Below are positions 37,405 through 53,739 of a stretch of DNA of 64,000 nucleotides, in pieces. The first letter of the stretch is position 1. Each line of letters opens with the position of its first letter. Both the position numbers and the translations under genes were made by a program. This DNA comes from Actinomycetota bacterium (lineage in GTDB: Bacteria; Actinomycetota; UBA4738; HRBIN12). The stretch spans positions 314-64,313 of the forward strand of contig DASWAT010000193.1 of assembly GCA_036390995.1 (NCBI GenBank), given 5' to 3'. The notes under the pieces are model-generated. The model saw only the letters and a program-made list of their open reading frames with translations. It did not search any database and had not been told where the DNA came from.

Positions 37405-38801
37405 GGACGGCAAACCGGAACATGGACGGTGAGGCCCGCCCCGTCGCCGGATGGGGCCGCACGTCGCCCACGTTCGCACGGATCCGAACCGTGCGTGATG
37501 CCGACGACGTCGCCGAAGCTCTGGCCTGGGCGGGACCGCGAGGCGCGCTCCCGCGCGGTCTGGGCCGGAGCTACGGCGACGTGGCGCAGAACGCCGGAGG
37601 GTTGGTCCTCGACACGACCGGTCTCGCGGGTATCCAGGAGCTCGACCTGGAGCGGGGCACCGTCCGGGTGGGGGCCGGCACCAGCTTGGACCGGTTGCTC
37701 CGCGAGCTCGTGCCCCTGGGCTGGCTCGTCCCGGTCCTGCCGGGTACGAGGAACGTGACGGTCGGTGGGGCCATCGCGAACGACGTCCACGGGAAGAACC
37801 ACCACCGCGACGGCGGCTTCTGCGATCACGTCGTCGACCTCACGCTGGTCACCACCGACGGCGAGCGCCGAACCGTAACCCCCGCCGGCGACCCCGAGCT
37901 CTTCGCGGCGACGGCGGGCGGCCTGGGCCTGACCGGCGTCGTGACAGCGGCGACGCTCCACCTGCTGCCGATCCGGACGGGTTTCGTGCGGGTCGACACG
38001 GATCGGGCGAACGATCTCGACGACCTGATGGCGCGGATGGAGGAGGGCGACCACCGCTACCGGTACTCCGTGGCCTGGATCGACTGCCTGGCTCGCGGCC
38101 GGCACCTCGGGCGAGGCGTCCTGACCAGGGCGGACCACGCCGTCACGCACGAACTCGATCGTCGCCACGCCGGCGGCGACCCGTTGGCCTTCGCCCCTCG
38201 CACGGTCGGCGCCGTCCCTCCGACACCCCGGCTCGTCGGTCGCACCACGGTGGCGGCGTTCAACGAAGCCTGGTTCCGGCGAGCACCTCGGGAAGCGCGG
38301 GACCGGATCCGTCCTCTCGCGTCGTTCTTCTTCCCGCTGGATGGCGTGGCGGGCTGGAACAGGCTGTACGGCCGGCGCGGCCTGGTCCAGTACCAGTTCG
38401 CCGTCCCGTTCGGCCGGGAGCGCACGATCGCCAGCGCGATCGACCGGCTTTCCTCACGCGGATGCCCCTCGTTCCTCGCCGTGCTGAAGCGGTTCGGACC
38501 GGGGCGCGGGTTGCTCTCGTTCCCGATCCCGGGATGGACGCTGGCCCTGGACATGCCGGCCGCATACCCGGGACTCCGACGGGTCCTCGACGAGCTCGAC
38601 CTCCTGGTGGCCCAAGCGGGCGGACGCGTGTATCTGGCGAAGGACTCGCGCCTTCGCCCGGAGCTCCTCCGCGACATGTACCCGGAGCTCGACCGGTGGC
38701 GAGAGGTTCGAGGCCGTGTGGACCCCGCGCGGGTGCTGCGATCGGACCTCGAGCGGCGCCTGGCCCTGGGGACGGACGAACGGAGGGAGGCGAGCGTATG
38801 A
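37401..38801 (+). CDS. dprE1: Decaprenylphosphoryl-beta-D-ribose oxidase-like FAD oxidoreductase
   Basis: GWGR, RGLGRSYGDVAQN, PGTRNVTVGGAIANDVHGKNHH, YSVAWID, FLAVLKRFG, GWTLALD and YLAKD. Confidence 0.9.
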   Translation: MRTANRNMDGEARPVAGWGRTSPTFARIRTVRDADDVAEALAWAGPRGALPRGLGRSYGDVAQNAGGLVLDTTGLAGIQELDLERGTVRVGAGTSLDRLLRELVPLGWLVPVLPGTRNVTVGGAIANDVHGKNHHRDGGFCDHVVDLTLVTTDGERRTVTPAGDPELFAATAGGLGLTGVVTAATLHLLPIRTGFVRVDTDRANDLDDLMARMEEGDHRYRYSVAWIDCLARGRHLGRGVLTRADHAVTHELDRRHAGGDPLAFAPRTVGAVPPTPRLVGRTTVAAFNEAWFRRAPREARDRIRPLASFFFPLDGVAGWNRLYGRRGLVQYQFAVPFGRERTIASAIDRLSSRGCPSFLAVLKRFGPGRGLLSFPIPGWTLALDMPAAYPGLRRVLDELDLLVAQAGGRVYLAKDSRLRPELLRDMYPELDRWREVRGRVDPARVLRSDLERRLALGTDERREASV

Positions 38802-43128: not shown

Positions 43129-43662
43129 CTAGCGACCCCGGAGCGCCGCGAGAGCCCGCCGGGCCTGATCCAGGTGGAACCGGTCGTGCCCGGCGATCAG
43201 CCGGAACGACAGATCCAGGCTCTCCGGACCTCGCTCCGCATGCATGCCGAGGCGCTCGCGCTCGGCCTCCGTGGTTCGGCCCCAGAGCGCCAGGTTCGCC
43301 TGCCGGAGCACCCCGAACACGTCCAGCAGCTCGCGCGGGTGGTCCTGTCCGTGCCGCAGGCGATCCACCCAGAGATCCTGGTCGTAGCCGGTCAGCGGGG
43401 GCTCGTCGTGCGCGAGGATCCACCGGTACCGGCCGGCGCACACGATCTCGGCGTCGGTGGCGTGCCCGAGGCACTCGAGCACGGACCACTCCGTGGGCTC
43501 CGGGCGCACCGCGAGGAGGTCGCCGGCCTGGGACACGAGGTCCGGCCAGGCGGCCAGCGTGGCCGTCTGCACCTCAACGGGATCGTCGTCGCCGAGGAGC
43601 CCGAGCAGGTGCCGCTGGTACCCGCCGGGATCGTCGATCGGATCGGGCGTGGGGACGGTCAC
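43129..43662 (-). CDS. DinB family protein
   Basis: EWSVLECLGHATDAE, YDQDLW and AGHDRFHLDQ; GTGA-coupled to the upstream fusion gene. Confidence 0.85.
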   Translation of the reverse strand: MTVPTPDPIDDPGGYQRHLLGLLGDDDPVEVQTATLAAWPDLVSQAGDLLAVRPEPTEWSVLECLGHATDAEIVCAGRYRWILAHDEPPLTGYDQDLWVDRLRHGQDHPRELLDVFGVLRQANLALWGRTTEAERERLGMHAERGPESLDLSFRLIAGHDRFHLDQARRALAALRGR

Positions 43663-46600
43663 TCGGCGACCTCGCCGTCGGTCGATCCGAGCTCGGCCGC
43701 GCCGGCGTTCGGCGACGCGGCATCGACCATGTCGTCCTGCACCGCGAGCTGCTCCTTGATGGATCGCGCCCAGATGTAGATCGCCGCCGTCACCAGCAGG
43801 AAGACGACCCCGGAGCCGACGAGGATGATCCGGGCCCGATCGCCGCTCCACACGAGCGTGAGGACCAGCGCGGGGACGATCCAGCCGAGGTTGTACGCGA
43901 TGTCGAACAGGCTGAACCCGCGCCCCCGGAAGTCGTCGGGCAGCGCCTGCTGCATGATCGTGTCGGCCGCGATCTTGCCGATGAAGAACCCCAGTGCGCC
44001 GATGAAGACGATCGCGCTGTAGCCGACGATCGTCGTGACGCCACCGAACAGGATCACGCCGATCCCCACCGCTGCCATCGACGTCACCAGCAACTGATAC
44101 GGGGGCACACGGTCCTTCAGCTTCTGCGCCAGGACCATGCCGATCGCCGCACCGATCGCTCCGAACGCCCCGGCGATGGCCACGACCGTCTTGTCGGAGT
44201 CCGCGCCGGAGAGGAGATGACGCGCCTCCAGCGCGAACGCGAGTGTCACGAAGCCGAAGAACTCCATCCGCAGGGCCTGGAACCCCGAAAGGCCCAGGGC
44301 GGCAGCGGGGCGCCCGAACACCTCCCGCACGCCCCGGACGATGTCGCCGAGCACGCGCTTCGCCTCGTCCACGAACCGGGTCACGTGCCGCTCGTACTCG
44401 AGCCGTTCCACCCGATTGGCCATCACGCCGGCGGACCCGTAGAGGATCGCTCCCAGAACCGCCACGATCCACGCCGGGGCGAGCGCGGTCCCCACCAGGG
44501 CCACGCCGCCGCCGAGCACCTGGAAGATCGCGCCGCCCGCCTGCGACAGCCCGTTGGCCTGCAGGAGGTCCTTGCCGTGGACCACGGCCGGCAGGCCCGC
44601 CGACTTGATGGCGAGCAGGATCCGCGTGCACGCGAGCGTGACGAGCACGGCCACGATGAGTACGACGTCGGGCAGCGCGTCGCCGCCGACGAGCAGGGCC
44701 ACCGCGGTCAGCGCCACGACGGCGGCTCGGAACAGGTTCGAGCGCGAAAGCAGCTCCCGGCGGTCGTAGCGATCGATGAACGCGCCGACGAACGGGCTCA
44801 CGAGCGTGTAGGGCACGTACAGGGCCAGGACGACGCCGAGGAGATACCGTGCCGAGGGAGCGCTCGTGACGTCGAACCCCTTCTGCCCGCCGAACGCGAT
44901 GGACTTCGCGAGCGACGCCTGGACGATGCCGTCCGCCGCCTGCGCGATGAACTGCGTGGTCATGAGCGCGGAGAAGCTACGGTTCGAGAAGACCGCGAAC
45001 ATCTCGTCGAAGAACCGCGAGAACGCCGCGAACAGCCGATCCAACCTGGGCTTCGCCAGCCGCAGCATCACGGCGATCGCAACCGCGAGTCCGATCGTCG
45101 CCCATCCGTCGGCCGCGCCGAACGGGGCGCGATGGGCGGCCACCACCACGATCCCGGCGATGATCGTGAGGGCGATCGAGATACCGGGAACGAGCGCGAC
45201 CTTCGTCCACACGTCCTCCAGGTCGAAGAACCGAGCGGAGATCAACCCGGGTACCACGAGCAGCAGCGCGAGCGCGATCAGCACCCGGAGCGTGTGTCCG
45301 AAGTTGCCGAACACCCCCGGGTGGTTCGCGTAGAGCTCGGCCGTCTGCCGTTCGGCTGCGCGCGCGGCATCCACCACCGCCGGAGAGGGCGTAGCGAGGT
45401 TGGGACCCGTGACCACCGCCATGTCGTCGCTGATCTTGATCAGGTAGTCGGGGGCGGGCTGCTGGTCGAGGAGCGCGGTGTTGTCGGTGTTCCCGTTGAA
45501 CTGGCGGACCAGGAAGGCGATCGGTGGCTCCGGGTACTCCTTCTCGAGGGTCTGGAGCTCGCGGAAGAAGCCGCGGGACATCTTGTTGTAGGTGGGATCC
45601 GCGAGCTGCGTCGGCCTGTTGGCCAGGAAGTCTTCGACGCTGCCGAAATACGACATCGATCGTTCCACGGCGTCGCCGGGCAGCCCGGTGCGCGACACGT
45701 TCGTGAACGTCTTCGACCACCCGTACGACTGGTAGGTGTCGCCGAAGTTCAGGATGAAGACGATCGGATGACCGGGCGCGGACTCCACCACGGCGCTGGC
45801 TGCCGCGAGCGCCGTCCGGGTCGGCTGGTCGATCCACTGGTTGTTCGGGTCCGCCCACTGGGACGCGTCGCGCCCACGGACCCACACGAACGCCAGCGCC
45901 CCGACCAAGACGGCAACCCCAAGAGCTCCGAGCACGCGCCGTCCGCCCTCGCGCCCCAGCAGCCACCGGGCGGCCACCCATACCCCGAGTCCGACCAGCG
46001 GCATGACGGCCGCCGTGGCGTTCATGAACCGGTAGTACGGATAGGCCTTGCCCAGGAGGAACCCGAAGACGCCGAGCAGCGGCAGGAGCCACAGGGCGGA
46101 GATGGTGCCGAACCCGGACGCCGGGCGGCGATCCCTGCGTGCCCGGTAGACCACCCAGCCGATCCCCAGCAGGATGAGCGGGAACGTGATGGCAGGCTGG
46201 AGCGAGAGCACCCACTGGCCGAGCCGCTTCTCGAACACGGCCTGCGTGTACGGCGGGGGAAGCGCTGCGTCGGCCAGCGATCCCTTCACGCCCCACGGCC
46301 CCACCAGCCACGAGGCCAGGCCGAGGATCATCCCGAAGCCGATCGACAGCAGGCTCGGGCCGTCTCGCCGGAGCGTCTCCCCCAGTGAGAGCCGGCTGGT
46401 CACGAAGTGCAGCGCGAACACGGCCATGAGCGAGGCGCCGAAGATCACGCACGTGGTGGGATGGGTGTACGCGGCAACGATCCCGAGCATGAACAGCGCC
46501 GTCCGGGCACCCCACGACGTTCGCCCCGGCCGGTAGAACGCGAGGGTGAGCGACAGGATGTACAGGACCGCGATGTTGTCGAGGTAGCCCACGTACGGCG

Positions 46601-47063
46601 TGGTCATGAACAGCGCCGCCGTGGCGAGCATCACCGACAGGTACAGGAGCGGGTCGCGGTGGTAGCGGTACCCGAACGCACCGAGCGCGAGGCCGGTGAG
46701 GATGGGGATCCCGATCATCATGAAGGCGCTGAACGTGTACAGGTCGATGCCCGCCACGCGCTGGAGGATCGATCCGTACAGGGGCACCGAGACCCTGTAC
46801 CCGCCGCCGAACATGTGGAACGGGCCCCAGTCGCCGGCGATGAGACCCGGGTCGTCGTGCATCATGAGGTTCGAGCGCCACGTGTACCAGGCAGGATCCC
46901 GCGTAGGTGCGCTGATGGAGGGGTCGCGGAGGAACGTCCAGCCGAACGCGAGGAGCAGAACGAGGATCGCGAAGACCAGGACGACCGCGCGGCCCGGGGC
47001 TCGGCTCTCTTCCTCCGGCACGCGGACGAGATCCTCGGCCGGGACCGACCTGGTGACCGCCAT
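43659..47063 (-). CDS. 1134-aa polytopic membrane protein: GT-C-like glycosyltransferase region fused to an MFS transporter
   Basis: N-terminal TM, then RDPAWY loop, AYTHP, YYRF and a soluble extracytoplasmic segment. The C-terminal ~440 aa are a 12-TM MFS (QFIAQAADG, FIDRYDRRELL, FRGRGFSLFD). The MFS call is firmer than the GT-C call. Confidence 0.7.
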   Translation of the reverse strand: MAVTRSVPAEDLVRVPEEESRAPGRAVVLVFAILVLLLAFGWTFLRDPSISAPTRDPAWYTWRSNLMMHDDPGLIAGDWGPFHMFGGGYRVSVPLYGSILQRVAGIDLYTFSAFMMIGIPILTGLALGAFGYRYHRDPLLYLSVMLATAALFMTTPYVGYLDNIAVLYILSLTLAFYRPGRTSWGARTALFMLGIVAAYTHPTTCVIFGASLMAVFALHFVTSRLSLGETLRRDGPSLLSIGFGMILGLASWLVGPWGVKGSLADAALPPPYTQAVFEKRLGQWVLSLQPAITFPLILLGIGWVVYRARRDRRPASGFGTISALWLLPLLGVFGFLLGKAYPYYRFMNATAAVMPLVGLGVWVAARWLLGREGGRRVLGALGVAVLVGALAFVWVRGRDASQWADPNNQWIDQPTRTALAAASAVVESAPGHPIVFILNFGDTYQSYGWSKTFTNVSRTGLPGDAVERSMSYFGSVEDFLANRPTQLADPTYNKMSRGFFRELQTLEKEYPEPPIAFLVRQFNGNTDNTALLDQQPAPDYLIKISDDMAVVTGPNLATPSPAVVDAARAAERQTAELYANHPGVFGNFGHTLRVLIALALLLVVPGLISARFFDLEDVWTKVALVPGISIALTIIAGIVVVAAHRAPFGAADGWATIGLAVAIAVMLRLAKPRLDRLFAAFSRFFDEMFAVFSNRSFSALMTTQFIAQAADGIVQASLAKSIAFGGQKGFDVTSAPSARYLLGVVLALYVPYTLVSPFVGAFIDRYDRRELLSRSNLFRAAVVALTAVALLVGGDALPDVVLIVAVLVTLACTRILLAIKSAGLPAVVHGKDLLQANGLSQAGGAIFQVLGGGVALVGTALAPAWIVAVLGAILYGSAGVMANRVERLEYERHVTRFVDEAKRVLGDIVRGVREVFGRPAAALGLSGFQALRMEFFGFVTLAFALEARHLLSGADSDKTVVAIAGAFGAIGAAIGMVLAQKLKDRVPPYQLLVTSMAAVGIGVILFGGVTTIVGYSAIVFIGALGFFIGKIAADTIMQQALPDDFRGRGFSLFDIAYNLGWIVPALVLTLVWSGDRARIILVGSGVVFLLVTAAIYIWARSIKEQLAVQDDMVDAASPNAGAAELGSTDGEVAE

Positions 47064-47086: not shown

Positions 47087-48781
47087 TTACGACGAGCCCG
47101 CGCGAGCCTCGGGCAGGCACGGGAGTCTGGACAGCATAGACGACGGGAAAGCGGCCGCGAACACGGTGTCGCTCTCGTGGCCGGCGGCCGGGACGTTCCG
47201 GTTCTTGTACGTCTGCTCCTGCGTGAGGCCGGCGATGAACTGTGAGATCTGCGCGAGCGTCACGCCGTTCGCCTTCAGCTCGGCGGGGTCGAGCCAGATC
47301 TCGGTCGCGCGCACCTTCTCGATGAGCGGCACGCGATCGCCGTCGCGATCGAACGCCTGCTCGATGAGCGACGTGAGCTTGTCGATGTCGATCATGAACG
47401 CGCCCGACACCGCCGGATCGCGCTGCGTGCCGTGGTCGGCGGTCAGGATCATGGCCCAGTTGCCCTGCCCGACCGTGCGGTTCAGGAAGTCGACGAACTG
47501 GCGCAGCGCGGCGTCCTGGTACTGCACGGCGTCGGACATCTCGAGACCGTCGGCGCTGAACAGGTGCCCGATCGTGTCGATGGCCTTGTAGTTCAGGTCG
47601 AGCAGGTCGGGGACGTCGTCCAGGCCGAAGCCCTCGCGCTGGAGGACGGTCTCGATCAGCTTCTCCTGGTAGGGCGTCCGAGCCGGCGTGTCGAAGCCGT
47701 TGTGGAGCTGGCTGAACGGGTGCCCTCGCCAGGCGTCGTCGAGCTTGCCGTCCGCCTGGTCGAGGGGGCGCGTGTACGCGGTGACCGGCGGCAGCGAGTT
47801 CACGTAGCTGGGGAACGTGTAGAAGGGAGCCATCGCGTCGGTGAGGTTCCAGACGCTCGACTCCGCGCCCCCGGTCGGTCCGAACTGGGCTTCGCGCGTG
47901 ACCGCGATGTCCTTGTCGCCCCCGCCCCACTCAGAGCCGTGGCTCATCATCATGATGTGGGCCGACAGGCTCGCGATACCGCCCACGATCGGGCGGTTGC
48001 CCATCGCCCGGTCGTAGAGGTCGGCCAGGGTCGGCTCCAACAGGAACGCGGGACCCTCGGCGTTCGGCTTCTGGATCCGGCCGTTCACCCGCATGTACTC
48101 GTCCACGAAGCCCGAATGCATCGGGAAAGCCCCCGTGCCGATGATCGAGTGGCCGGTCGGGGTGTTCGACGGGGAGGACCCCACGGTGGCGTTCGTGAAG
48201 AGCGCCCCGTGCGGCAGGAGGGAGCGCAGGTAGGGCCAGTCGTCCTTCCACCGGTTCAGGACGTCCCACCCGGCAGAGTCCCAGATCATCGTCACGAGGA
48301 GCTTCGGCAACGGCCGCTGATCGGCCGGAAGCAGGGCCTGCGTCTGGGCGCTTCCGTCGGGCGCGTCGAAGGGGAACTTCAGCAACGCTCCGGCCGTTGG
48401 GGCGACGTCTGCGAGCGTCACCGCGCGTGGGTACACGCCCGCGCGCACGTAGCCGGGGCCGTACAGGAAGACCGGGACGTCCTGCGTGTACGGATACGGG
48501 GTCGCGTGGGTGAGTCCTCCGTTCACGAAGTTCGGGTACTTCGGGATGATCTGGATGTCACCGCCTCGGCCGGGGAAGTATCCACGCCACGTCCGCAGCA
48601 GCACGTCGTGGGAGACGTGGGTGCACACCCGCTCGGCCAGCGCGCGGTTCGTGACGGGCGGTGGCGGCGACGGGGCTCCGGCCCCGCTCCCAGGCCCCGT
48701 GGGTGACGGCTCCGAGCCCGACGACGCGGTGCATGCCGCGAGGAGGAGGGCGAGAGCGCTCGCGGCCATCCGTCGTCTCAC
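47087..48781 (-). CDS. Alkaline-phosphatase-superfamily (PafA/NPP-like) lipoprotein, circularly permuted
   Basis: Lipobox LAAC; LTHA..VPVFLYGPG..DVAPT precedes the core KLLVTMIWD, NTPTGH, IDTIGH and ADHG. Confidence 0.88.
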   Translation of the reverse strand: MRRRMAASALALLLAACTASSGSEPSPTGPGSGAGAPSPPPPVTNRALAERVCTHVSHDVLLRTWRGYFPGRGGDIQIIPKYPNFVNGGLTHATPYPYTQDVPVFLYGPGYVRAGVYPRAVTLADVAPTAGALLKFPFDAPDGSAQTQALLPADQRPLPKLLVTMIWDSAGWDVLNRWKDDWPYLRSLLPHGALFTNATVGSSPSNTPTGHSIIGTGAFPMHSGFVDEYMRVNGRIQKPNAEGPAFLLEPTLADLYDRAMGNRPIVGGIASLSAHIMMMSHGSEWGGGDKDIAVTREAQFGPTGGAESSVWNLTDAMAPFYTFPSYVNSLPPVTAYTRPLDQADGKLDDAWRGHPFSQLHNGFDTPARTPYQEKLIETVLQREGFGLDDVPDLLDLNYKAIDTIGHLFSADGLEMSDAVQYQDAALRQFVDFLNRTVGQGNWAMILTADHGTQRDPAVSGAFMIDIDKLTSLIEQAFDRDGDRVPLIEKVRATEIWLDPAELKANGVTLAQISQFIAGLTQEQTYKNRNVPAAGHESDTVFAAAFPSSMLSRLPCLPEARAGSS

Positions 48782-48797: not shown

Positions 48798-50543
48798 TCA
48801 GCCGCCGCGGGCCTCCGGCAGACACGGCAGGTCCTTCATGATCGACGAGGGGAACGCGGCCTGGAAGACTCGATCGTTGGCCGTCGCCGGATCAACGGCG
48901 ACACCCGCCCCGGCCGTCTGTGCCTGCGTGAGCGTCATGAGGTACTGGGATACGTCGTCCAGCGTGTAGCCGTTCTGGTGCAGCTCCCTCGTGTCGATGA
49001 AGATCTGGGTGGGCTGGATCAGCTGGACGATGTGCGTCGTGTCGCCGTCGTGGTCGAACTTGGCATTGATGCCCGCCGCGATCGGCGTGGACGAGATCTG
49101 GAAGCCGCCCGAGACCCGCGGCGGGATCATGGACCCGTGGTCGGCGGTGAGCGCCAGGACCCAGTTGCCCTCGCCGACCTGCCGGTTCAGGAATCCGATG
49201 AATCCCTTCAGCGCGACGTCCTGGGCAACCACGGCGTCGCGCATCTCCAGCGAATCCACGCTCCACACGTGGCTGATGTAGTCGATCTCCTTGTAGTTCA
49301 CGTAGAGGAGGTCCGGGACGTCGTCGGCGCCGAACCTCTCGCGCCGGACCATCTCCTCCAGCACGCGTGTCTGGTAGGGCGTGCGTGCCGGCGTGTCGAA
49401 GCCGTTCAGGAGCTGCGCGATGTCGTTGTTCCGCCACTTGCCGTCGATCTGCCCATCGGCCGCGTCCACCGCGCGGACGTCGTCCTGGAACCCCGGCACG
49501 TCGTTCACGTAGCCCGGGAAGCGGTAGAACTGCTGCAGCAGCGGGCTGAGGTTCCACCTGAACGTCTCGGCGCCGAGCGTGTCGGCGCCCACGGCCTCCC
49601 GGGTCACCGCGATGTCCTTGTCGCCGCCGCCCCACATCGAGCCGTGCCCGAGCATGCCCAGGTGGATCGAGACCGTGCCGAGCTCACCGACCACGGGCTT
49701 GTTCGCCATGGCCCGGTCGTACAGGTCGGCCAGCGTCGGATCCATGAGGTACGCGGGTCCTTGCGCCCACGGTGTGGTGATCCTGTCGCCGATCCGGAAC
49801 CGATGACCGATCAGCTCGTGGTGGTCGGGGAACGCGCCGGTGCCGATCGTGGCGTGGATCTGCGCCGTGCTGGTGGGCGAGGAACCGACCGACGTGTTCG
49901 CGTACCACGTGCCCTTCGGGATGAGGGAACGAAGGTACGGCCACGCGTCCTTCCATCGGTCGAGGACGTCGGTGCCGCCCGCATCCCACACCATCGTGAC
50001 GATCAGCTTCGGCGGTTGTTGACCGGGAACGATCGCCTCGTCCATGGGGATGCCGTCGGGGGCGTGGTACTGGTCGAACTGCAGCAGCTTCGCTGCGGTC
50101 GGCGCGATCCCCGCGACGGTCACAGGGCGATCCACCGGGCCGCGGGCCTGGATGTGACCCGGCCCGTACCAGAACATCGGCACGTCGTTCACGTAGTCCC
50201 AAGGGCCGACGTGCGGCAGACCAGAGCCGATGAAGTCGTATTCCTTCGGAAGGAGCTGGATCTCGGGTCCTCGGTCCGCCTCGTAGCCGCGCCAGGTCCG
50301 GAGCAGCCACTCGTGGGGGATCGAGCAGGCGATCTCCTGCACACTGCCCGGCGCAACGATGGCGGACGATGACGCCGGCGTGACGGTCGCGATGGCCACC
50401 GGAGAAGCCGCGGGAGCGGACGGCGACGCCCTCGTGGGGGAAGGAGCGGCGACCTCCTGCGCGCCCGAACCGGTGCAGGCCCCGGCCGCCAGCGACGTGG
50501 CGAAGGCGAGCGCCAAGAGGCGTCTGGAGGTCACGAAGCGCAT
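48798..50543 (-). CDS. Second PafA/NPP-like lipoprotein paralog, same permuted order
   Basis: Lipobox AGAC; LPHV..VPMFWYGPG..GIAPT, then KLIVTMVWD, STAQIH, IDYISH and ADHG. Confidence 0.88.
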   Translation of the reverse strand: MRFVTSRRLLALAFATSLAAGACTGSGAQEVAAPSPTRASPSAPAASPVAIATVTPASSSAIVAPGSVQEIACSIPHEWLLRTWRGYEADRGPEIQLLPKEYDFIGSGLPHVGPWDYVNDVPMFWYGPGHIQARGPVDRPVTVAGIAPTAAKLLQFDQYHAPDGIPMDEAIVPGQQPPKLIVTMVWDAGGTDVLDRWKDAWPYLRSLIPKGTWYANTSVGSSPTSTAQIHATIGTGAFPDHHELIGHRFRIGDRITTPWAQGPAYLMDPTLADLYDRAMANKPVVGELGTVSIHLGMLGHGSMWGGGDKDIAVTREAVGADTLGAETFRWNLSPLLQQFYRFPGYVNDVPGFQDDVRAVDAADGQIDGKWRNNDIAQLLNGFDTPARTPYQTRVLEEMVRRERFGADDVPDLLYVNYKEIDYISHVWSVDSLEMRDAVVAQDVALKGFIGFLNRQVGEGNWVLALTADHGSMIPPRVSGGFQISSTPIAAGINAKFDHDGDTTHIVQLIQPTQIFIDTRELHQNGYTLDDVSQYLMTLTQAQTAGAGVAVDPATANDRVFQAAFPSSIMKDLPCLPEARGG

Positions 50544-50630
50544 ACGAAACAACACCACGGGCGAGTGTGCAACCTAACAGACCTGCGGAGCGACGGACCC
50601 TCGGCCCGATCCCGCGGTACCGTGGAGTGC

Positions 50631-51959
50631 GTGTTCGGGCGAAGGCTTCTGATCCTCCTCGTGCTCCTGGGTCTGCTGGCGATCCCCGCAGGGGCACTGC
50701 GGGCCGCATGCGTGGGGCGCTCGTGCGCGGTCGAAGTCGGATCGGTCCGGGTTCCCTTCTGCCCCCTCCCCGCAGCGCTGAGGGCCGATCTGGTGGCGGG
50801 GTTCCGGGAGGGACGCTCCCCGGACGTCCTGGCGGTCGCGCGCACCCCCACGGTGCGAGGCGCGACCCGCGACCCCGGAGTGGCCCCGCCGTGGCCGTTC
50901 CTGACCACGCGGCCGGACACCTCGGTTCCGATCGTGTTCGCCGGCACCGGCGTGGATCCCGCCGCCGTGGTCCCCGGCGGAACGGGTCTCGATCAGATCG
51001 CGCCCACGCTCGCCGACGTCATCGGGTTCCGGCGGCCGCATCCGGAGGTCCGCGCCGGCGTCGCCGTCCGGGGCGTGGCCGACGGCGCCCACCCCCGCCT
51101 GATCCTCGAGATCGCGTGGAAGGGGGTGGGCCGCGCCGACCTGCGCTCCGCCCCGGACGCGTGGCCGTTCCTTTCGTCACTGCTTCGGACCGGGGCGGGA
51201 ACGCTCGACGGCACGACCGGGTCCCTGCCTCTGGACCCCACGGCCACGCTCACGACGATCGGAACCGGCGGGCTCCCCTCGCAGCATGGGATCACGGGGA
51301 CACTCGTCCGCGACAAGCGTGGGAAGGTCGTCACCGCGTGGGGAAGGGGATCGCCGCTCTCGGTGATCGCGACGCTCCCAGACGACCTCGACCAGCGAGA
51401 GAACCAGGCCTCGAAGATCGGCCTGGTGGCCACCGACCCGTCCGATCGGGGGCTCACCGGCGGCAACTGGTACCTCGGACACGATCACGACGCCTTCGTC
51501 ACCGCATCGGGTCCCGGAGCCGTGACCGCGGCCTCGGGGCTCCTGGCGAGCGGATTCGGGCGGGACCGCGTTCCGGACGTCCTGGCCGTGGTTCTGGACG
51601 GCTCGATCCGGTCCATGGACCTTCGAACCCGGCAGATCGTCGTCGCCGCGCGCGAGGCGTCGGCGGGCTCCGTCGTGGTGGCCGTCGCCGGCTCGGGTTC
51701 GGCCGCGGCGCACCGGGGTGCCGATGTCCGCGTCGCCGACGTCGTGGCGAAGGTGGAGACCGCCGTCCCCGGCGACATCGATGTGGTGACGGGTGCCGTT
51801 CCCGGCGGACTGTTCCTGAACCAGGACGCGCTGACCTCGCTCGGGATCACCGGGCAGGCCGCCGTGCAGGCGCTCCTGGACGTCGAGGCCCCGGATGGGT
51901 CGAAGCTGTTCGACGACGCGTTCCAGGGGTTCGCGGTGTCCTTCGCGAGGTACTGCTGA
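50631..51959 (+). CDS. Third, degenerate permuted AP-superfamily protein (probable pseudoenzyme)
   Basis: VPIVFAGTG..DQIAPTLA, RLILEIAWK, WPFLSSLL and TTIGTGGLPSQHG. Metal-ligand D/H residues are missing. Confidence 0.72.
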   Translation: MFGRRLLILLVLLGLLAIPAGALRAACVGRSCAVEVGSVRVPFCPLPAALRADLVAGFREGRSPDVLAVARTPTVRGATRDPGVAPPWPFLTTRPDTSVPIVFAGTGVDPAAVVPGGTGLDQIAPTLADVIGFRRPHPEVRAGVAVRGVADGAHPRLILEIAWKGVGRADLRSAPDAWPFLSSLLRTGAGTLDGTTGSLPLDPTATLTTIGTGGLPSQHGITGTLVRDKRGKVVTAWGRGSPLSVIATLPDDLDQRENQASKIGLVATDPSDRGLTGGNWYLGHDHDAFVTASGPGAVTAASGLLASGFGRDRVPDVLAVVLDGSIRSMDLRTRQIVVAAREASAGSVVVAVAGSGSAAAHRGADVRVADVVAKVETAVPGDIDVVTGAVPGGLFLNQDALTSLGITGQAAVQALLDVEAPDGSKLFDDAFQGFAVSFARYC

Positions 51960-52972
51960 TGACCGACGTCGTCACCGCCCCACGCGCGCGCACCGCCTCG
52001 GGACGCACGTTCGCCGCGATCCTGGTGGCCCTCGTGCTGACCGCGCTCCTGCTCCGGCTCTCCGCACCGGAGCGGGTTGCGTGGATCCAGACCTTCTTCG
52101 TGATCTTCGGTTCGCTGCTGATCCAGGCGCTGCCGTTCGTCCTGATCGGCGCCCTGGCGGCCGCGATCATCGAGGTGTTCGTGCCGATCGGAACGCTCGA
52201 GAAGCTCGCGAGCCTCCCTCGGGCGCTGCAGCTGCCCGCCGCGGCACTCGCCGGACTGGCGTTCCCGATCTGCGAATGCGGCTCGGTGCCGGTGGCACGC
52301 CGCCTGGCCGCGAAGGGGTTGAAGCCCTCGGCGGCGGTGACGTTCATGCTGGCCGCGCCGGTCCTGAATCCGGTCGTGATCGCGTCGACCTTCGTCGCGT
52401 ACCGGGGGCGAACCGCCCTGTGGACCATGGTGATCGGGAGGTTCACCCTCGGGTTGCTGGTGGCGGTGGCGGTGGGCTGGGTCGTGGGCGACCGGTCGAA
52501 GGACGAGCTCCTGCGGCCCCGCCCCGACGAAGGGCACGCGCATCACGTCGTCGAGCTCGCCCCTCCCGAGGCGAGGTGGAGGCGCTTCTTCGTCCACATG
52601 GGCAACGACTTCCTGTACATGGGGCGGTTCCTGGTGCTCGGGGCGACCATCGCGGCGATGGTCCAGACGTTCCTGCCTGCGTCCGTGATCGGCGGCGTCG
52701 CGGGGATCCCGGTGGTCGACCTGCTCGTGATGATGGCGCTCGCGTTCGTCCTGTCGCTGTGCAGCGAATCGGACGCCTTCATCGCGGCCTCGTTCGTGCA
52801 GTTCGGCCCGGCGGCCCAGCTCGCCTTCCTCGTGTTCGGCCCGATGGTCGACTTCAAGCTGGGCGCGCTCTACATGGGGACGTTCCGGAAGGGGTTCTTC
52901 CGGATGCTGGTGATCGCGGTCGCGGCATCGACGCTCGTGGGCACGATGTGGGTCAAAGTGATCGCCGGATGA
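51959..52972 (+). CDS. DUF318 / YcgR-like permease
   Basis: QALPFVLIG, PICECGSVP, LAAPVLNP, CSESDAF and FGPMVD. Confidence 0.9.
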   Translation: MTDVVTAPRARTASGRTFAAILVALVLTALLLRLSAPERVAWIQTFFVIFGSLLIQALPFVLIGALAAAIIEVFVPIGTLEKLASLPRALQLPAAALAGLAFPICECGSVPVARRLAAKGLKPSAAVTFMLAAPVLNPVVIASTFVAYRGRTALWTMVIGRFTLGLLVAVAVGWVVGDRSKDELLRPRPDEGHAHHVVELAPPEARWRRFFVHMGNDFLYMGRFLVLGATIAAMVQTFLPASVIGGVAGIPVVDLLVMMALAFVLSLCSESDAFIAASFVQFGPAAQLAFLVFGPMVDFKLGALYMGTFRKGFFRMLVIAVAASTLVGTMWVKVIAG

Positions 52973-53739
52973 GCGACGTCGTCGTCCCCCGCCCAGCGGC
53001 ACCCGCGGCGACGCATGCCAGGATGCGCCCGGCGCCCACGGGGTGGAGCCCATCCCGGGTCGGCGGGGGTCTGGTCCTCGGCGCCTGGGCGACGCTGTTC
53101 TGGTTCCTCCTCCTGTCCGGACGGGACAACCTGTACCTGTCCACTCGCACCAGCTGGGTCGTCCCGGTCGGGGCGGCGCTGCTCTCCGCCGCCTCGCTCG
53201 GCCGGCTGGCCTCGGCCAGGGTGCGCGCCCCCGAGCCGCTCGGCCGGCGCGAGGCGTGGATCCTCGGGGCGATGGTGCTGCCGGTCGTGCTGGTGCTCGC
53301 GCTGCCGCCCGCGACCCTCGGGAGCTTCTCGGCCGGCAAGCGCGCAGGCTTCGCGGCCTCGGGAGTGGCCACGCCGCTCGGCGACATCGGGACCGGACAG
53401 CTGACGCTGATCGACGTCGCGGCGGCGCAGACGACGAAGCAGGGTGAGACCGCGCTGGCGAAGCGGGCGGGCGAGGCGGTGGGATTCGTCGGCTTCGTCA
53501 CGCGCTACGCCGATACGCCGGCCGACGAGTTCCTGCTGTCCCGTTACATCGTCACCTGCTGCGTCGCCGATGCCACGATCGCCCAGGTTCGCGTGGTGAA
53601 CGTCACGCCGGGCGCGTTCGCGGCGAACCAGTGGGTCGAGGTCAAGGGCACGATCTACCCGCTGGGACGCGAGGTCATCGTGAACGCATCATCGGTCGCC
53701 AGCGTGCCGCGGCCCTCACGGCCGTACCTCACGCCCTGA
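52969..53739 (+). CDS. TIGR03943 / YcgQ-like (DUF1980) membrane protein
   Basis: LYLSTR, GFVGFV, RYIVTCCVADA, QWVEVKG and PSRPYL. Confidence 0.88.
   Translation: MSDVVVPRPAAPAATHARMRPAPTGWSPSRVGGGLVLGAWATLFWFLLLSGRDNLYLSTRTSWVVPVGAALLSAASLGRLASARVRAPEPLGRREAWILGAMVLPVVLVLALPPATLGSFSAGKRAGFAASGVATPLGDIGTGQLTLIDVAAAQTTKQGETALAKRAGEAVGFVGFVTRYADTPADEFLLSRYIVTCCVADATIAQVRVVNVTPGAFAANQWVEVKGTIYPLGREVIVNASSVASVPRPSRPYLTP

What the first reader, a model, noticed from the sequence alone, without database searches (positions are those of the whole stretch)
43659..47063. GT-C-like glycosyltransferase fused to an MFS transporter
One uninterrupted 1134-aa ORF. The first ~690 aa show a GT-C-like layout (acidic residue in the first external loop, THP, YxR before the last core TM, external soluble domain) and the rest is a complete MFS. 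I know of no characterised fusion of this kind. Inference: the MFS could be a flippase/exporter channelling lipid-linked sugar or acceptor, possibly the arabinose donor encoded 3 kb away.
Basis: inference. Interest (0 to 1): 0.65.

Follow-up and report, generated by a model that had tools for sequence, protein, structure and literature searches.

The report
Lipid-sugar transferase fused to MFS transporter
One 1134-residue membrane protein of an uncultured soil actinobacterium joins an unannotated enzyme module, shaped like the transferases that use lipid-carried sugars outside the cell, to a complete MFS transporter; the pairing is conserved, so the transporter may be the long-sought flippase that feeds such enzymes.

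Summary
The ORF is real (window 43659-47063, minus strand, 1134 aa, GC3 0.92 in both halves). Residues ~694-1101 are a canonical 12-helix MFS transporter of DHA3-like type. Residues 1-690 match no Pfam, NCBIfam or PDB sequence. Their AlphaFold model (pTM 0.81) matches GT-C glycosyltransferases in all 11 top PDB hits (STT3, ArnT, AftA, PglB, ALG3, AftB). Family-wide conserved residues (D56, R63, D162, H201, R345) all lie on the predicted outer face.

The fusion is not an artefact. It is full-length in more than 100 proteins from independent assemblies and in four families of the window's order. In a distant sister family (26-39% identity) the two halves are separate genes of one operon. This supports functional coupling.

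Exported PafA-like alkaline-phosphatase-superfamily genes (1-4 copies) flank the pair in nearly all loci. They share its phyletic distribution (51 shared genomes of 54 and 53, out of 401).

The proposed link to the nearby decaprenyl-phospho-arabinose genes fails: DprE1 occurs in only 3 of 54 carrier genomes.

Best reading: an extracytoplasmic glycosylation enzyme fused to the transporter of its lipid-linked substrate. Donor, acceptor and the phosphatases' role remain inferred. I file it as a new variant of a known kind.

The parts
43659..47063 (-). Whole fusion gene, 1134 aa plus stop (P0002)
   Evidence: GC1/2/3 are 0.67/0.47/0.92. At least 545 homologs, the best 120 nearly all ~1125 aa.
45864..46994 (-). 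GT-C-like transmembrane core, residues 24-400, about 11 helices. External loops carry the conserved motifs TRD56PAWYTWR63, GGY89R90, YLD162N, TH201PTT, DAALPPP271Y and PY343YR345FMN348.
   Evidence: AlphaFold models. Foldseek hits to STT3, ArnT, AftA and PglB. Conservation. Positive-inside loop count.
46896..46898 (-). Codon of D56, the candidate catalytic or metal-binding Asp of external loop 1
   Evidence: Invariant in A1 and A2 and kept in 98% of 102 sequences. Codon checked.
46578..46580 (-). Codon of D162 (YLDN motif, external loop between TM3 and TM4), the second conserved acidic residue
   Evidence: Kept in 99% of 102 sequences. Codon checked.
46029..46031 (-). Codon of R345 (PYYRF motif in the loop before TM10), a candidate ligand for the lipid-carrier phosphate
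   Evidence: Kept in 98% of 102 sequences. Codon checked. The role is inferred.
45303..45863 (-). External soluble alpha/beta domain, residues 401-587 (conserved W410, R458, G474, FxxRxFN523)
   Evidence: Secondary structure and pLDDT 80-96. Conservation. No WWD motif in the sequence.
44985..45302 (-). Three further transmembrane helices and a cytoplasmic connecting helix, residues 588-693. Also present in the stand-alone homologs.
   Evidence: Weak matches to the start of DUF6541 in stand-alone relatives.
43761..44984 (-). MFS transporter module, residues 694-1101, 12 helices. Motif A at G760-R768 (nt 44760-44786). Conserved charged residues that I place in membrane helices: R814, K820, R932, K1030, D1034.
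   Evidence: Pfam and NCBIfam. Invariant columns. Foldseek TM 0.64-0.76 to VMAT, ferroportin, Spns1/2 and MdfA.
47087..48781 (-). PafA-like alkaline-phosphatase-superfamily lipoprotein (P0122), 24 nt upstream of the fusion gene
   Evidence: PF01663 at 77 bits. Best PDB hit is PafA 5tj3, E 3e-21. Lipobox LLAAC.
48798..50558 (-). Second PafA-like lipoprotein paralog (P0123), first gene of the operon
   Evidence: Lipobox AAGAC.
43129..43662 (-). DinB_2-family gene whose GTG start overlaps the fusion gene's stop (GTGA). An accessory gene, found only in close relatives.
50631..53739 (+). Divergently transcribed degenerate PafA paralog, ArsP_1 permease and DUF1980. This context is conserved with the module in both clades.

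Best explanation
The gene encodes a bifunctional inner-membrane protein.

- **N-terminal module (residues 1-690).** It founds, or belongs to, an undescribed family of GT-C-fold glycosyltransferases. It has about 11 core helices, an outward-facing active site built from external loops (D56, R63, R90, D162, H201, R345), an external alpha/beta domain and three further helices.
- **C-terminal module (residues ~694-1101).** It is a DHA3-like, proton-coupled MFS transporter.
- **Proposed mechanism.** The MFS moves a lipid-linked, phosphate-bearing substrate to the outer leaflet, right beside the GT-C active site. That substrate is most likely the polyprenyl-phosphate-sugar donor. The alternatives are the lipid acceptor or the spent carrier. 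The GT-C module then transfers the sugar to an envelope acceptor. This would be the flippase and transferase of a 'three-component' extracytoplasmic glycosylation system fused into one chain.
- **Partners.** Membrane-anchored PafA-like phosphatases encoded in the same operon act in the same extracytoplasmic process. They may act on a phosphorylated lipid or glycan intermediate, or be the glycosylation targets.

Shown: the fold, the MFS identity, the conserved fusion or operon pairing, the outward position of the conserved residues, and the association with phosphatases. Inferred: transferase activity, the identity of donor and acceptor, the flippase role of the MFS, and the role of the phosphatases.
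For: - **Fold.** The N-domain model has pLDDT 76.6 and pTM 0.81. The 11 best PDB matches are all GT-C enzymes: STT3 6ezn_F (E 1.5e-5), ArnT 5f15, AftA 8if8_C, PglB 5ogl_A, ALG3 and AftB. The next matches are unrelated transporters at probability 0.08-0.16.
- **Active-site layout.** Across 102 sequences down to 26% identity, the residues kept in at least 93% include D56, Y60, W62, R63, Y89, R90, D162, H201, P202, Y343, R345 and N348. All sit in predicted external loops.
- **MFS.**. Conserved R814, K820, R932 and K1030, which I place in membrane helices, would suit an anionic substrate (inference).
- **Coupling.** The fusion is kept in all complete loci of families f1, f2, f4 and f5. In family f6 the orthologous MFS (38-42% identical, against 26% for the next MFS in the window's own genome) is a separate gene in the same operon as the stand-alone GT-C-like gene.
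- **Whole-chain model.** The full-length model has pTM 0.81 over 1134 residues and a continuous connecting helix. This suggests a fixed arrangement of the two modules.
- **Phosphatases.** They are adjacent in about 35 of 37 loci with enough flank and share the same phyletic pattern. All carry export signals.
- **Glycan context.** In f6 the gene is translationally coupled to a Wzy_C-family gene and a Wzx gene, next to sulfotransferases and a WecG/TagA glycosyltransferase.
- **Precedent.** Flippase families are already known to be interchangeable in three-component systems: GtrA-type, SMR or MATE (PMC11127046).
Against: - No polyprenyl-phosphate-sugar synthase (GT2) gene was seen in the operon in any lineage, so the donor is unknown.
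- The MFS is only generically DHA3-like: 83-86 bits against a cut-off of 320 for TIGR00900. Its structural neighbours are mostly drug and amine transporters. Resemblance to lipid transporters (the LplT part of Aas fusions at E 4e-10; Spns1 at 19% identity) is weak.
- TM-scores to known GT-C enzymes are moderate (0.42-0.51).
- The phyletic match with the phosphatases rests on essentially two clades. It may reflect one or two evolutionary events.
- Two loci lack adjacent phosphatases (L054, L067).
- No coordinates were available, so I could not inspect the modelled interface.
Confidence: 0.5

Rival explanations
1. Dedicated protein glycosylation of the co-encoded phosphatases. The GT-C module would be a PMT- or OST-like protein glycosyltransferase that modifies the exported PafA-like enzymes (or other lipoproteins). 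The MFS would supply the lipid-linked sugar.
For: - The best structural match is the oligosaccharyltransferase subunit STT3.
- The phosphatases are almost always adjacent.
- In the window they are lipoproteins with Ser/Thr/Pro-rich linkers. From general knowledge, such linkers are typical O-glycosylation sites in actinobacterial lipoproteins.
Against: - The Ser/Thr/Pro-rich linker is absent from the f5 and f6 phosphatases, which have plain signal peptides or signal anchors.
- There is no WWDxG-type acceptor motif.
- Most carrier genomes already encode PMT- or ArnT-type GT-C enzymes, so there is no 'missing enzyme' argument.
- Two loci keep the MFS and GT-C pair without phosphatases.
Confidence: 0.17
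2. A lipid-carrier cycle. The GT-C module would use a polyprenyl-diphosphate-linked glycan, as OST and WaaL do. The membrane-anchored PafA-like enzymes would dephosphorylate the released polyprenyl diphosphate. The MFS would return polyprenyl phosphate to the inner leaflet.
For: - OST-type enzymes are the top structural hits.
- The phosphatases are tethered at the outer face of the membrane.
- In f6 the gene is coupled to Wzx and Wzy_C genes, which handle diphosphate-linked glycans.
- Conserved cationic residues in the MFS.
Against: - Known carrier phosphatases (BacA, PAP2) and carrier flippases (DedA, DUF368) are unrelated families (general knowledge).
- Having 2-4 paralogous phosphatases per locus is more than such a role needs.
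- The window's own genome lacks the f6 Wzy_C and sulfotransferase genes.
Confidence: 0.1
3. A phosphate-scavenging or lipid-remodelling module. The PafA-like enzymes would hydrolyse external organophosphates or membrane phospholipids. The MFS would move the product or a lysolipid. The GT-C-like module would be a structural anchor or an ancillary activity.
For: - The neighbours are most similar to PafA and PhoK phosphomonoesterases.
- The family is expanded to three or more copies per genome.
- There are weak MFS similarities to LplT-type and OPA-type transporters and to Spns1.
- Metal-uptake genes lie alongside.
Against: - The GT-C-like module keeps a complete set of conserved external polar residues over deep divergence. 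This argues for catalysis, not scaffolding.
- In two loci the MFS and GT-C pair persists without phosphatases.
- I identified no Pho-type regulatory evidence.
Confidence: 0.13
4. One reading: an arabinofuranosyltransferase that uses decaprenyl-phospho-arabinose made by the ubiA-dprE1-dprE2 genes 5 kb away, with the MFS as the donor flippase.
For: - DprE1 is present in the window above the NCBIfam cut-off.
- AftA and AftB are among the structural hits.
Against: - DprE1 occurs in only 3 of 54 carrier genomes and in no f6 genome.
- It is absent from the flanks of all 21 related loci. It lies on the other strand, behind three unrelated genes.
Confidence: 0.05
5. An artefact: a chimeric ORF made by an assembly or frameshift error that joins two genes.
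For: - One relative (L017) shows the two halves in separate frames.
- In family f6 they are separate genes.
Against: - L017 has frameshifts in every gene of the locus, typical of uncorrected long-read assemblies.
- The fusion is in frame in 16 of the 21 GTDB loci, including every locus complete at both ends except L017, and in the more than 100 listed proteins from independent assemblies.
- Codon bias is identical in both halves.
- The gene order in f6 differs (MFS, PafA, GT-C), so a lost stop codon cannot explain the fusion.
Confidence: 0.01

Closest known systems
GT-C_A glycosyltransferases with an external C-terminal domain (STT3/PglB/AglB, ArnT, AftA/AftB, PMT)
   Same: - Overall fold (Foldseek probability 1.0, TM 0.42-0.51).
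- A conserved Asp in the first external loop and a second acidic residue in the loop between TM3 and TM4.
- Conserved basic residues near the outer leaflet.
- A soluble external domain after the core.
   Different: - No detectable sequence similarity to any of them.
- No WWDxG motif.
- Three extra helices after the external domain.
- Fused to an MFS transporter.
- Activity, donor and acceptor are unknown.
Three-component extracytoplasmic glycosylation systems (GtrA/GtrB/GtrC; CsbB/GtcA/YfhO; the polyprenyl-phosphoribose synthase, MATE flippase and GT136 system of PMC11127046)
   Same: - A GT-C enzyme acting outside the membrane, paired genetically with a membrane transporter presumed to flip the lipid-linked donor.
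- The flippase family is already known to vary between systems.
   Different: - Here the presumed flippase is an MFS and is covalently fused to the GT-C (or lies in the same operon in f6).
- No lipid-sugar synthase gene is in the cluster.
- Exported PafA-like phosphatases are constant companions.
MFS lipid transporters and MFS fusion proteins: LtaA (glycolipid flippase of lipoteichoic acid synthesis), LplT and LplT-Aas fusions, Spns1/2, MFSD2A
   Same: - These are MFS proteins that move amphipathic lipids.
- LplT-Aas is a precedent for an MFS fused to the enzyme that handles its lipid substrate.
- LtaA works with an extracellular alkaline-phosphatase-superfamily enzyme (LtaS). This point is from general knowledge.
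- There are weak profile matches to the LplT part of Aas fusions (E 4e-10) and a structural match to Spns1.
   Different: - The similarity is no better than to drug exporters.
- The best family match is DHA3 (TIGR00900), far below its cut-off.
- The fusion partner here is a GT-C module at the N-terminus, not an acyltransferase.
PafA/PhoK-type alkaline phosphatases (the neighbours, not the gene itself)
   Same: - PF01663 domain.
- Best PDB hit is PafA 5tj3 (E 3e-21).
- The nucleophile Thr context (NTPTGH) is retained.
   Different: - 110 bits against a cut-off of 650 for the PafA equivalog.
- The segment order appears circularly permuted: query residues 59-140 align to PafA 439-522.
- They are membrane-tethered and present in 2-4 tandem copies beside the GT-C/MFS pair.

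Membership tests
GT-C glycosyltransferase superfamily (GT-C_A class) | Multi-helix membrane core with the GT-C fold | tested here: met
   AlphaFold pTM 0.81. The 11 top Foldseek PDB hits are all GT-C enzymes at probability 0.99-1.00. No other fold scores below E 0.04.
GT-C glycosyltransferase superfamily (GT-C_A class) | Conserved acidic residue in the first external loop | tested here: met
   D56 is invariant in A1 and A2 and kept in 98% of 102 sequences. It lies just after TM1 on the predicted outer side. D162 in the next external loop is kept in 99%.
GT-C glycosyltransferase superfamily (GT-C_A class) | Transfer of sugar from a lipid-phosphate-linked donor | not testable with these tools
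   Needs biochemistry.
Any existing sequence family of GT-C enzymes (Pfam PMT, PMT_2, STT3, Arabinose_trans, AftA, GT87, YfhO and others; NCBIfam) | Profile match above the curated cut-off | tested here: not met
   - No Pfam or NCBIfam hit in residues 1-690, apart from DUF5693 at E 0.011, below its cut-off.
- No PDB sequence hit at E < 0.09.
- Stand-alone homologs have no family either.
Oligosaccharyltransferases (STT3/PglB/AglB) | WWDxG motif in the external domain | tested here: not met
   No WWD string anywhere in the protein. The conserved external-domain residues are different: W410, Y447-G448-W449, R458.
Mycobacterial-type arabinofuranosyltransferases (AftA/AftB/Emb) using decaprenyl-phospho-arabinose | Co-occurrence with the donor pathway (DprE1) | tested here: not met
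   DprE1 is in 3 of 54 carrier genomes, in none of f6, and in no related locus flank.
Major facilitator superfamily | 12 helices in two six-helix halves, with motif A between TM2 and TM3 | tested here: met
   - PF07690 at 66.9 bits against 33.4.
- 12 helices in the model.
- G760-x3-D764-R765-x2-R768 invariant.
- TM 0.64-0.76 to solved MFS structures.
DHA3 (TIGR00900) and LplT-type MFS | Score above the curated family cut-off | tested here: not met
   TIGR00900 scores 82.6-86.4 bits against 319.6. PRK06814 and PRK08633 score 25-38 bits against more than 1200. This is resemblance only.
Three-component glycosylation system | Adjacent GT2 polyprenyl-phosphate-sugar synthase and a small GtrA-type flippase | tested here: not met
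   Neighbours in the window and in about 38 related loci are phosphatases, DinB_2, a hydrolase, DUF1684 and AlaX. In f6 they are Wzy_C, Wzx and sulfotransferases. No GT2 or GtrA gene was seen in the operon. No genome-wide search for a GT2 synthase was done.

The most novel reading that the evidence does not exclude
The MFS module is a flippase for a polyprenyl-phosphate-linked sugar (or for the carrier lipid itself). It is physically coupled to the GT-C enzyme that consumes that lipid. This would be the first natural flippase-transferase fusion. It would mean MFS proteins can serve as lipid-linked-sugar flippases and that the substrate is handed over within one protein. The PafA-like enzymes would complete a previously undescribed envelope pathway in uncultured Actinomycetota.
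Probability: 0.4. Interest if true: 0.75.

Novelty: new variant of a known kind. Interest (0 to 1): 0.6.

Why it matters
From general knowledge, direct flipping activity has not been demonstrated for most of the proposed flippases that carry polyprenyl-phosphate sugars across the membrane (GtrA, Rv3789, ArnE/F, MATE proteins). A conserved covalent fusion of a transporter to a GT-C enzyme, backed by the split-gene arrangement in a sister clade, is a 'Rosetta stone' that nominates a specific transporter for a specific transferase. It also gives a single polypeptide that can be expressed, reconstituted and imaged to test flipping and substrate hand-over.

The finding also defines a GT-C family with no entry in the Pfam or NCBIfam libraries searched. 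And it points to an unknown envelope process that links lipid-linked glycosylation with exported alkaline-phosphatase-superfamily enzymes in abundant, uncultured soil Actinomycetota.

Tried and rejected
1. **Sequence searches of the N-domain.** Pfam, NCBIfam and a PDB profile search gave nothing usable.
2. **DprE1 link.** Rejected by synteny and phyletic pattern.
3. **'Missing PMT' argument for protein O-glycosylation.** PMT- or ArnT-type hits exist in most carrier genomes, so the test does not discriminate.
4. **Ser/Thr/Pro-rich linkers as a general acceptor feature of the phosphatases.** They are present only in f1 and f2, not in f5 or f6.
5. **Wzy_C, Wzx and sulfotransferase genes as core partners.** They are adjacent only in f6. 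The window's genome has no orthologue of the Wzy_C or sulfotransferase genes and only a weak Wzx-like match (26% identity).
6. **DinB_2 gene as a core partner.** It is present only in close relatives.
7. **Alternative neighbours in the two loci that lack phosphatases.** They are unrelated genes.
8. **Foldseek of the full-length model.** The list is saturated by generic MFS hits and does not identify a substrate class.
9. **Literature searches for a described GT-C/MFS fusion or a PafA/GT-C operon.** None found in the held library.
11. **Model coordinates.** They are not exposed, so I could not measure the GT-C/MFS interface or make residue-level superpositions on ArnT or PglB.

Full report
**Observation**

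On the minus strand an open frame ends at the stop codon 43659-43661. The frame stays open upstream to 47930. That upstream stretch has GC3 of 0.46, against 0.92 in the gene, because it is the out-of-frame shadow of the upstream gene. The ATG at 47063 gives MAVTRSV..., the N-terminus shared by homologs. It lies 24 nt after the stop of the preceding gene. The product is 1134 aa. Both halves have the same codon-position GC pattern, 0.65-0.69 / 0.45-0.48 / 0.92-0.93.

**The C-terminal half**

- Pfam MFS_1 matches residues 742-1063 at 66.9 bits, against a cut-off of 33.4.
- NCBIfam places the domain nearest the DHA3 subfamily TIGR00900, at 83-86 bits and far below the 320-bit cut-off. There are weaker matches to the LplT-like N-terminal MFS of Aas fusion proteins (E 4e-10) and to macrolide exporters.
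- The full-length AlphaFold model shows 12 helices between residues 695 and 1101.
- Its Foldseek neighbours are ordinary MFS structures: VMAT1/2, ferroportin, Spns1/2, NorA and MdfA, with target-normalised TM 0.64-0.76.
- Motif A (G760-x3-D764-R765-x2-R768) is invariant in 32 fused homologs. So are several charged residues that I place in membrane helices: R814, K820, R932, K1030 and D1034.
- The module is a complete and probably active MFS transporter. Its substrate class cannot be read from similarity.

**The N-terminal half**

- Residues 1-690 match no Pfam or NCBIfam family and no PDB sequence.
- With a 17-sequence alignment, AlphaFold gave pLDDT 76.6 and pTM 0.81. In the full-length run with 32 sequences the first external loop also became confident.
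- Foldseek against the PDB returned GT-C glycosyltransferases in ranks 1-11: yeast and human STT3, ArnT 5f15, AftA 8if8_C, PglB 5ogl_A, ALG3 and AftB. E ran from 1.5e-5 to 3.5e-2, probability 0.99-1.00, and TM 0.28-0.51, with all but ALG3 at 0.35 or higher.
- The next hits were unrelated transporters at probability about 0.1.
- The predicted layout is:
  - a cytoplasmic N-terminus;
  - TM1 (residues 24-46);
  - a long first external loop with short helices;
  - about ten more helices, to residue 400;
  - an external alpha/beta domain (401-587);
  - three more helices (588-669);
  - a cytoplasmic helix (671-693) that runs into MFS TM1.
- The short loops assigned to the cytoplasm carry the Arg/Lys clusters.
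- I aligned 102 family members down to 26% identity. The positions kept in at least 93% include D56, Y60, W62, R63, G88-Y89-R90, D162, H201-P202, W257-G258, P271, Y343, R345, N348, W410, R458 and G474. All lie in predicted external loops or in the external domain.
- This is the GT-C_A pattern: an Asp in external loop 1, a second acidic residue in the loop between TM3 and TM4, and basic residues that could hold the phosphate of a lipid carrier.
Of the two RDP strings, D56 is more conserved than D47.
- No WWDxG motif is present, so it is not an oligosaccharyltransferase in the strict sense.

**Is the fusion real?**

- A word-index search found at least 545 homologs. The best 120 are nearly all 1115-1165 aa, at 60-88% identity. 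They come from many independent metagenome assemblies and are labelled 'MFS transporter' or 'hypothetical'.
- Of 21 loci in GTDB species genomes, every complete one keeps a single frame of 1103-1155 codons. That includes one at 45% identity.
- The only split, L017, lies in a long-read MAG where every gene of the locus is broken by frameshifts.
- I sampled 401 genomes of the phylum. The family occurs in 54:
  - 29 genomes in four families of the window's order (f1, f2, f4, f5), always fused, with open frames of about 1120-1280 codons;
  - 25 genomes in one other family (f6), as a stand-alone frame of about 680-780 codons.
- A profile search of 1.84 billion representatives likewise found few fused and many stand-alone proteins of 650-740 aa. 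These cover profile positions ~20-670.
- All are unnamed proteins of uncultured Actinomycetota.

**The split form is informative**

- In most of the 12 f6 loci the gene order is PafA-like, MFS, PafA-like, GT-C-like, all on one strand with overlapping or closely spaced genes. Ten of the 12 have both flanking PafA-like genes. In L063 the contig ends at the MFS. L054 has none.
- The separate MFS is 38-42% identical to the window's MFS module. The next-best MFS in the window's own genome is 26% identical. So the f6 MFS is the orthologue.
- The gene order differs from the fused order (GT-C then MFS), so the fusion is not a lost stop codon.
- The two modules have therefore stayed together, as one gene or as one operon, across divergence down to about 30% identity.
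- The full-length model has pTM 0.81 over 1134 residues. That is higher than expected for two independently floating modules. I could not inspect the interface because coordinates are not exposed.

**Context**

- Upstream on the same strand lie two paralogous genes, 47087-48781 and 48798-50558. Both have lipoprotein signal peptides (LLAAC, AAGAC) and a PF01663 domain.
- Their best PDB and NCBIfam relatives are the PafA and PhoK alkaline phosphatases, far below the equivalog cut-offs. Their N-terminal segment aligns to the C-terminal part of PafA, which suggests circular permutation.
- One to four such genes precede the fusion gene in every close locus. They flank the pair in f2, f5 and f6. Only two loci (L054, L067) lack them.
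- In the 401-genome sample this phosphatase family occurs in 53 genomes. Of these, 51 are among the 54 carriers of the GT-C-like family. Both families are confined to the same two clades, so this is few independent events.
- The phosphatases are always exported, but by different means: lipobox in f1 and f2, Sec signal or signal anchor in f5 and f6. The Ser/Thr/Pro-rich linker seen in the window is not general.
- A divergently transcribed set is conserved with the module in both clades: a degenerate PafA paralog, an ArsP_1 permease and DUF1980.
- In f6 the GT-C-like gene is translationally coupled to a Wzy_C-family gene and a Wzx-type flippase gene. Nearby are two sulfotransferases, a sulfatase and a WecG/TagA glycosyltransferase, which is an envelope-glycan context. 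The Wzy_C and sulfotransferase genes are absent from the window's genome; only a weak Wzx-like match remains.
- A DinB_2 gene overlaps the stop codon of the fusion gene (GTGA) in the window and in about ten close relatives only.

**The arabinose idea**

- DprE1 is truly present 5 kb away on the other strand (573 bits, cut-off 500).
- None of the 21 related loci has it in the flanks.
- Among 401 genomes it occurs in 51, but in only 3 of the 54 carriers and in no f6 genome. Chance alone would give about 7.
- The donor of this family is therefore not decaprenyl-phospho-arabinose as a rule.

**Mechanism**

The best-supported reading is an extracytoplasmic glycosylation enzyme fused to the transporter of its lipid-linked substrate. 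These would be two parts of a 'three-component' system. In such systems the flippase family is already known to vary between GtrA-type, SMR and MATE proteins (PMC11127046).

- **Shown:** the fold, the outward-facing conserved residues, the MFS identity, the conserved pairing and the association with phosphatases.
- **Inferred:** glycosyl transfer, the nature of donor and acceptor, flipping by the MFS and what the phosphatases do.

Rival readings remain open:
- dedicated glycosylation of the phosphatases;
- a diphosphate-carrier cycle;
- a phosphate-scavenging or lipid-remodelling module.

The test for a 'missing PMT' did not discriminate between them. An earlier follow-up on an orthologue in another genome reached the same general reading. 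That is not independent evidence.

**Novelty**

No Pfam, NCBIfam or PDB entry covers the N-domain. No paper in the searchable library describes a GT-C/MFS fusion or this operon. I rate it a new variant of a known kind: a new GT-C family in a new architecture. Interest is moderate to high, because it offers a concrete, testable candidate for a lipid-linked-sugar flippase.

Noticed in passing
window 43129-43662 (-): A 177-aa DinB_2-family gene starts with a GTG that overlaps the fusion gene's TGA (GTGA). It is present after the fusion gene in about ten close relatives, is a remnant in L001, and was not found in the more distant lineages.
   Followed up: partly
window 47087-48781 and 48798-50558 (-): The PafA-like lipoproteins look circularly permuted. 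Residues 59-140 align to PafA residues 439-522, while residues 156-455 align to PafA 15-347. The family has three or more copies per genome in both clades.
   Followed up: partly
window 50631-53739 (+); L052-L066: A degenerate PafA paralog (PF01663 only at E 1e-3), an ArsP_1 permease and DUF1980 form a divergent operon. Its position next to the PafA/MFS/GT-C module is conserved in both the window's order and family f6. Some f6 loci carry a second ArsP/DUF1980 pair.
   Followed up: partly
window ~37434-38801 (+): DprE1 (573 bits) is patchy in the window's own lineage. It is found in only 2 of 23 sampled genomes of the same family and in 1 of the other families of the order. The donor operon may be a recent acquisition.
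   Followed up: partly
L053 10959-19900 (family f6): Downstream of the stand-alone GT-C-like gene lie a Wzy_C-family gene, Wzx, two sulfotransferases, a sulfatase, a PD40 propeller protein and a WecG/TagA glycosyltransferase. This looks like a locus for a sulfated envelope glycan.
   Followed up: partly
L017 (CAWHGC010000015.1): Every gene of this locus is interrupted by frameshifts (phosphatases, fusion gene, hydrolase, AlaX). This is typical of an unpolished long-read MAG and explains the apparent split of the fusion gene there.
   Followed up: yes
L001 (JBHGAT010000005.1): The closest relative (88% identity, same gene order) is deposited as 'Candidatus Velamenicoccus archaeovorus'. From memory, that name belongs to a different phylum. 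All other relatives are labelled Actinomycetota, so the label is probably wrong.
   Followed up: no
stand-alone homologs P0132, P0136, P0147, P0176 (C-terminal ~90 aa): The three helices after the external domain give weak hits (E 2e-4 to 1e-2) to the first 75-88 positions of Pfam DUF6541, another uncharacterised polytopic family.
   Followed up: no
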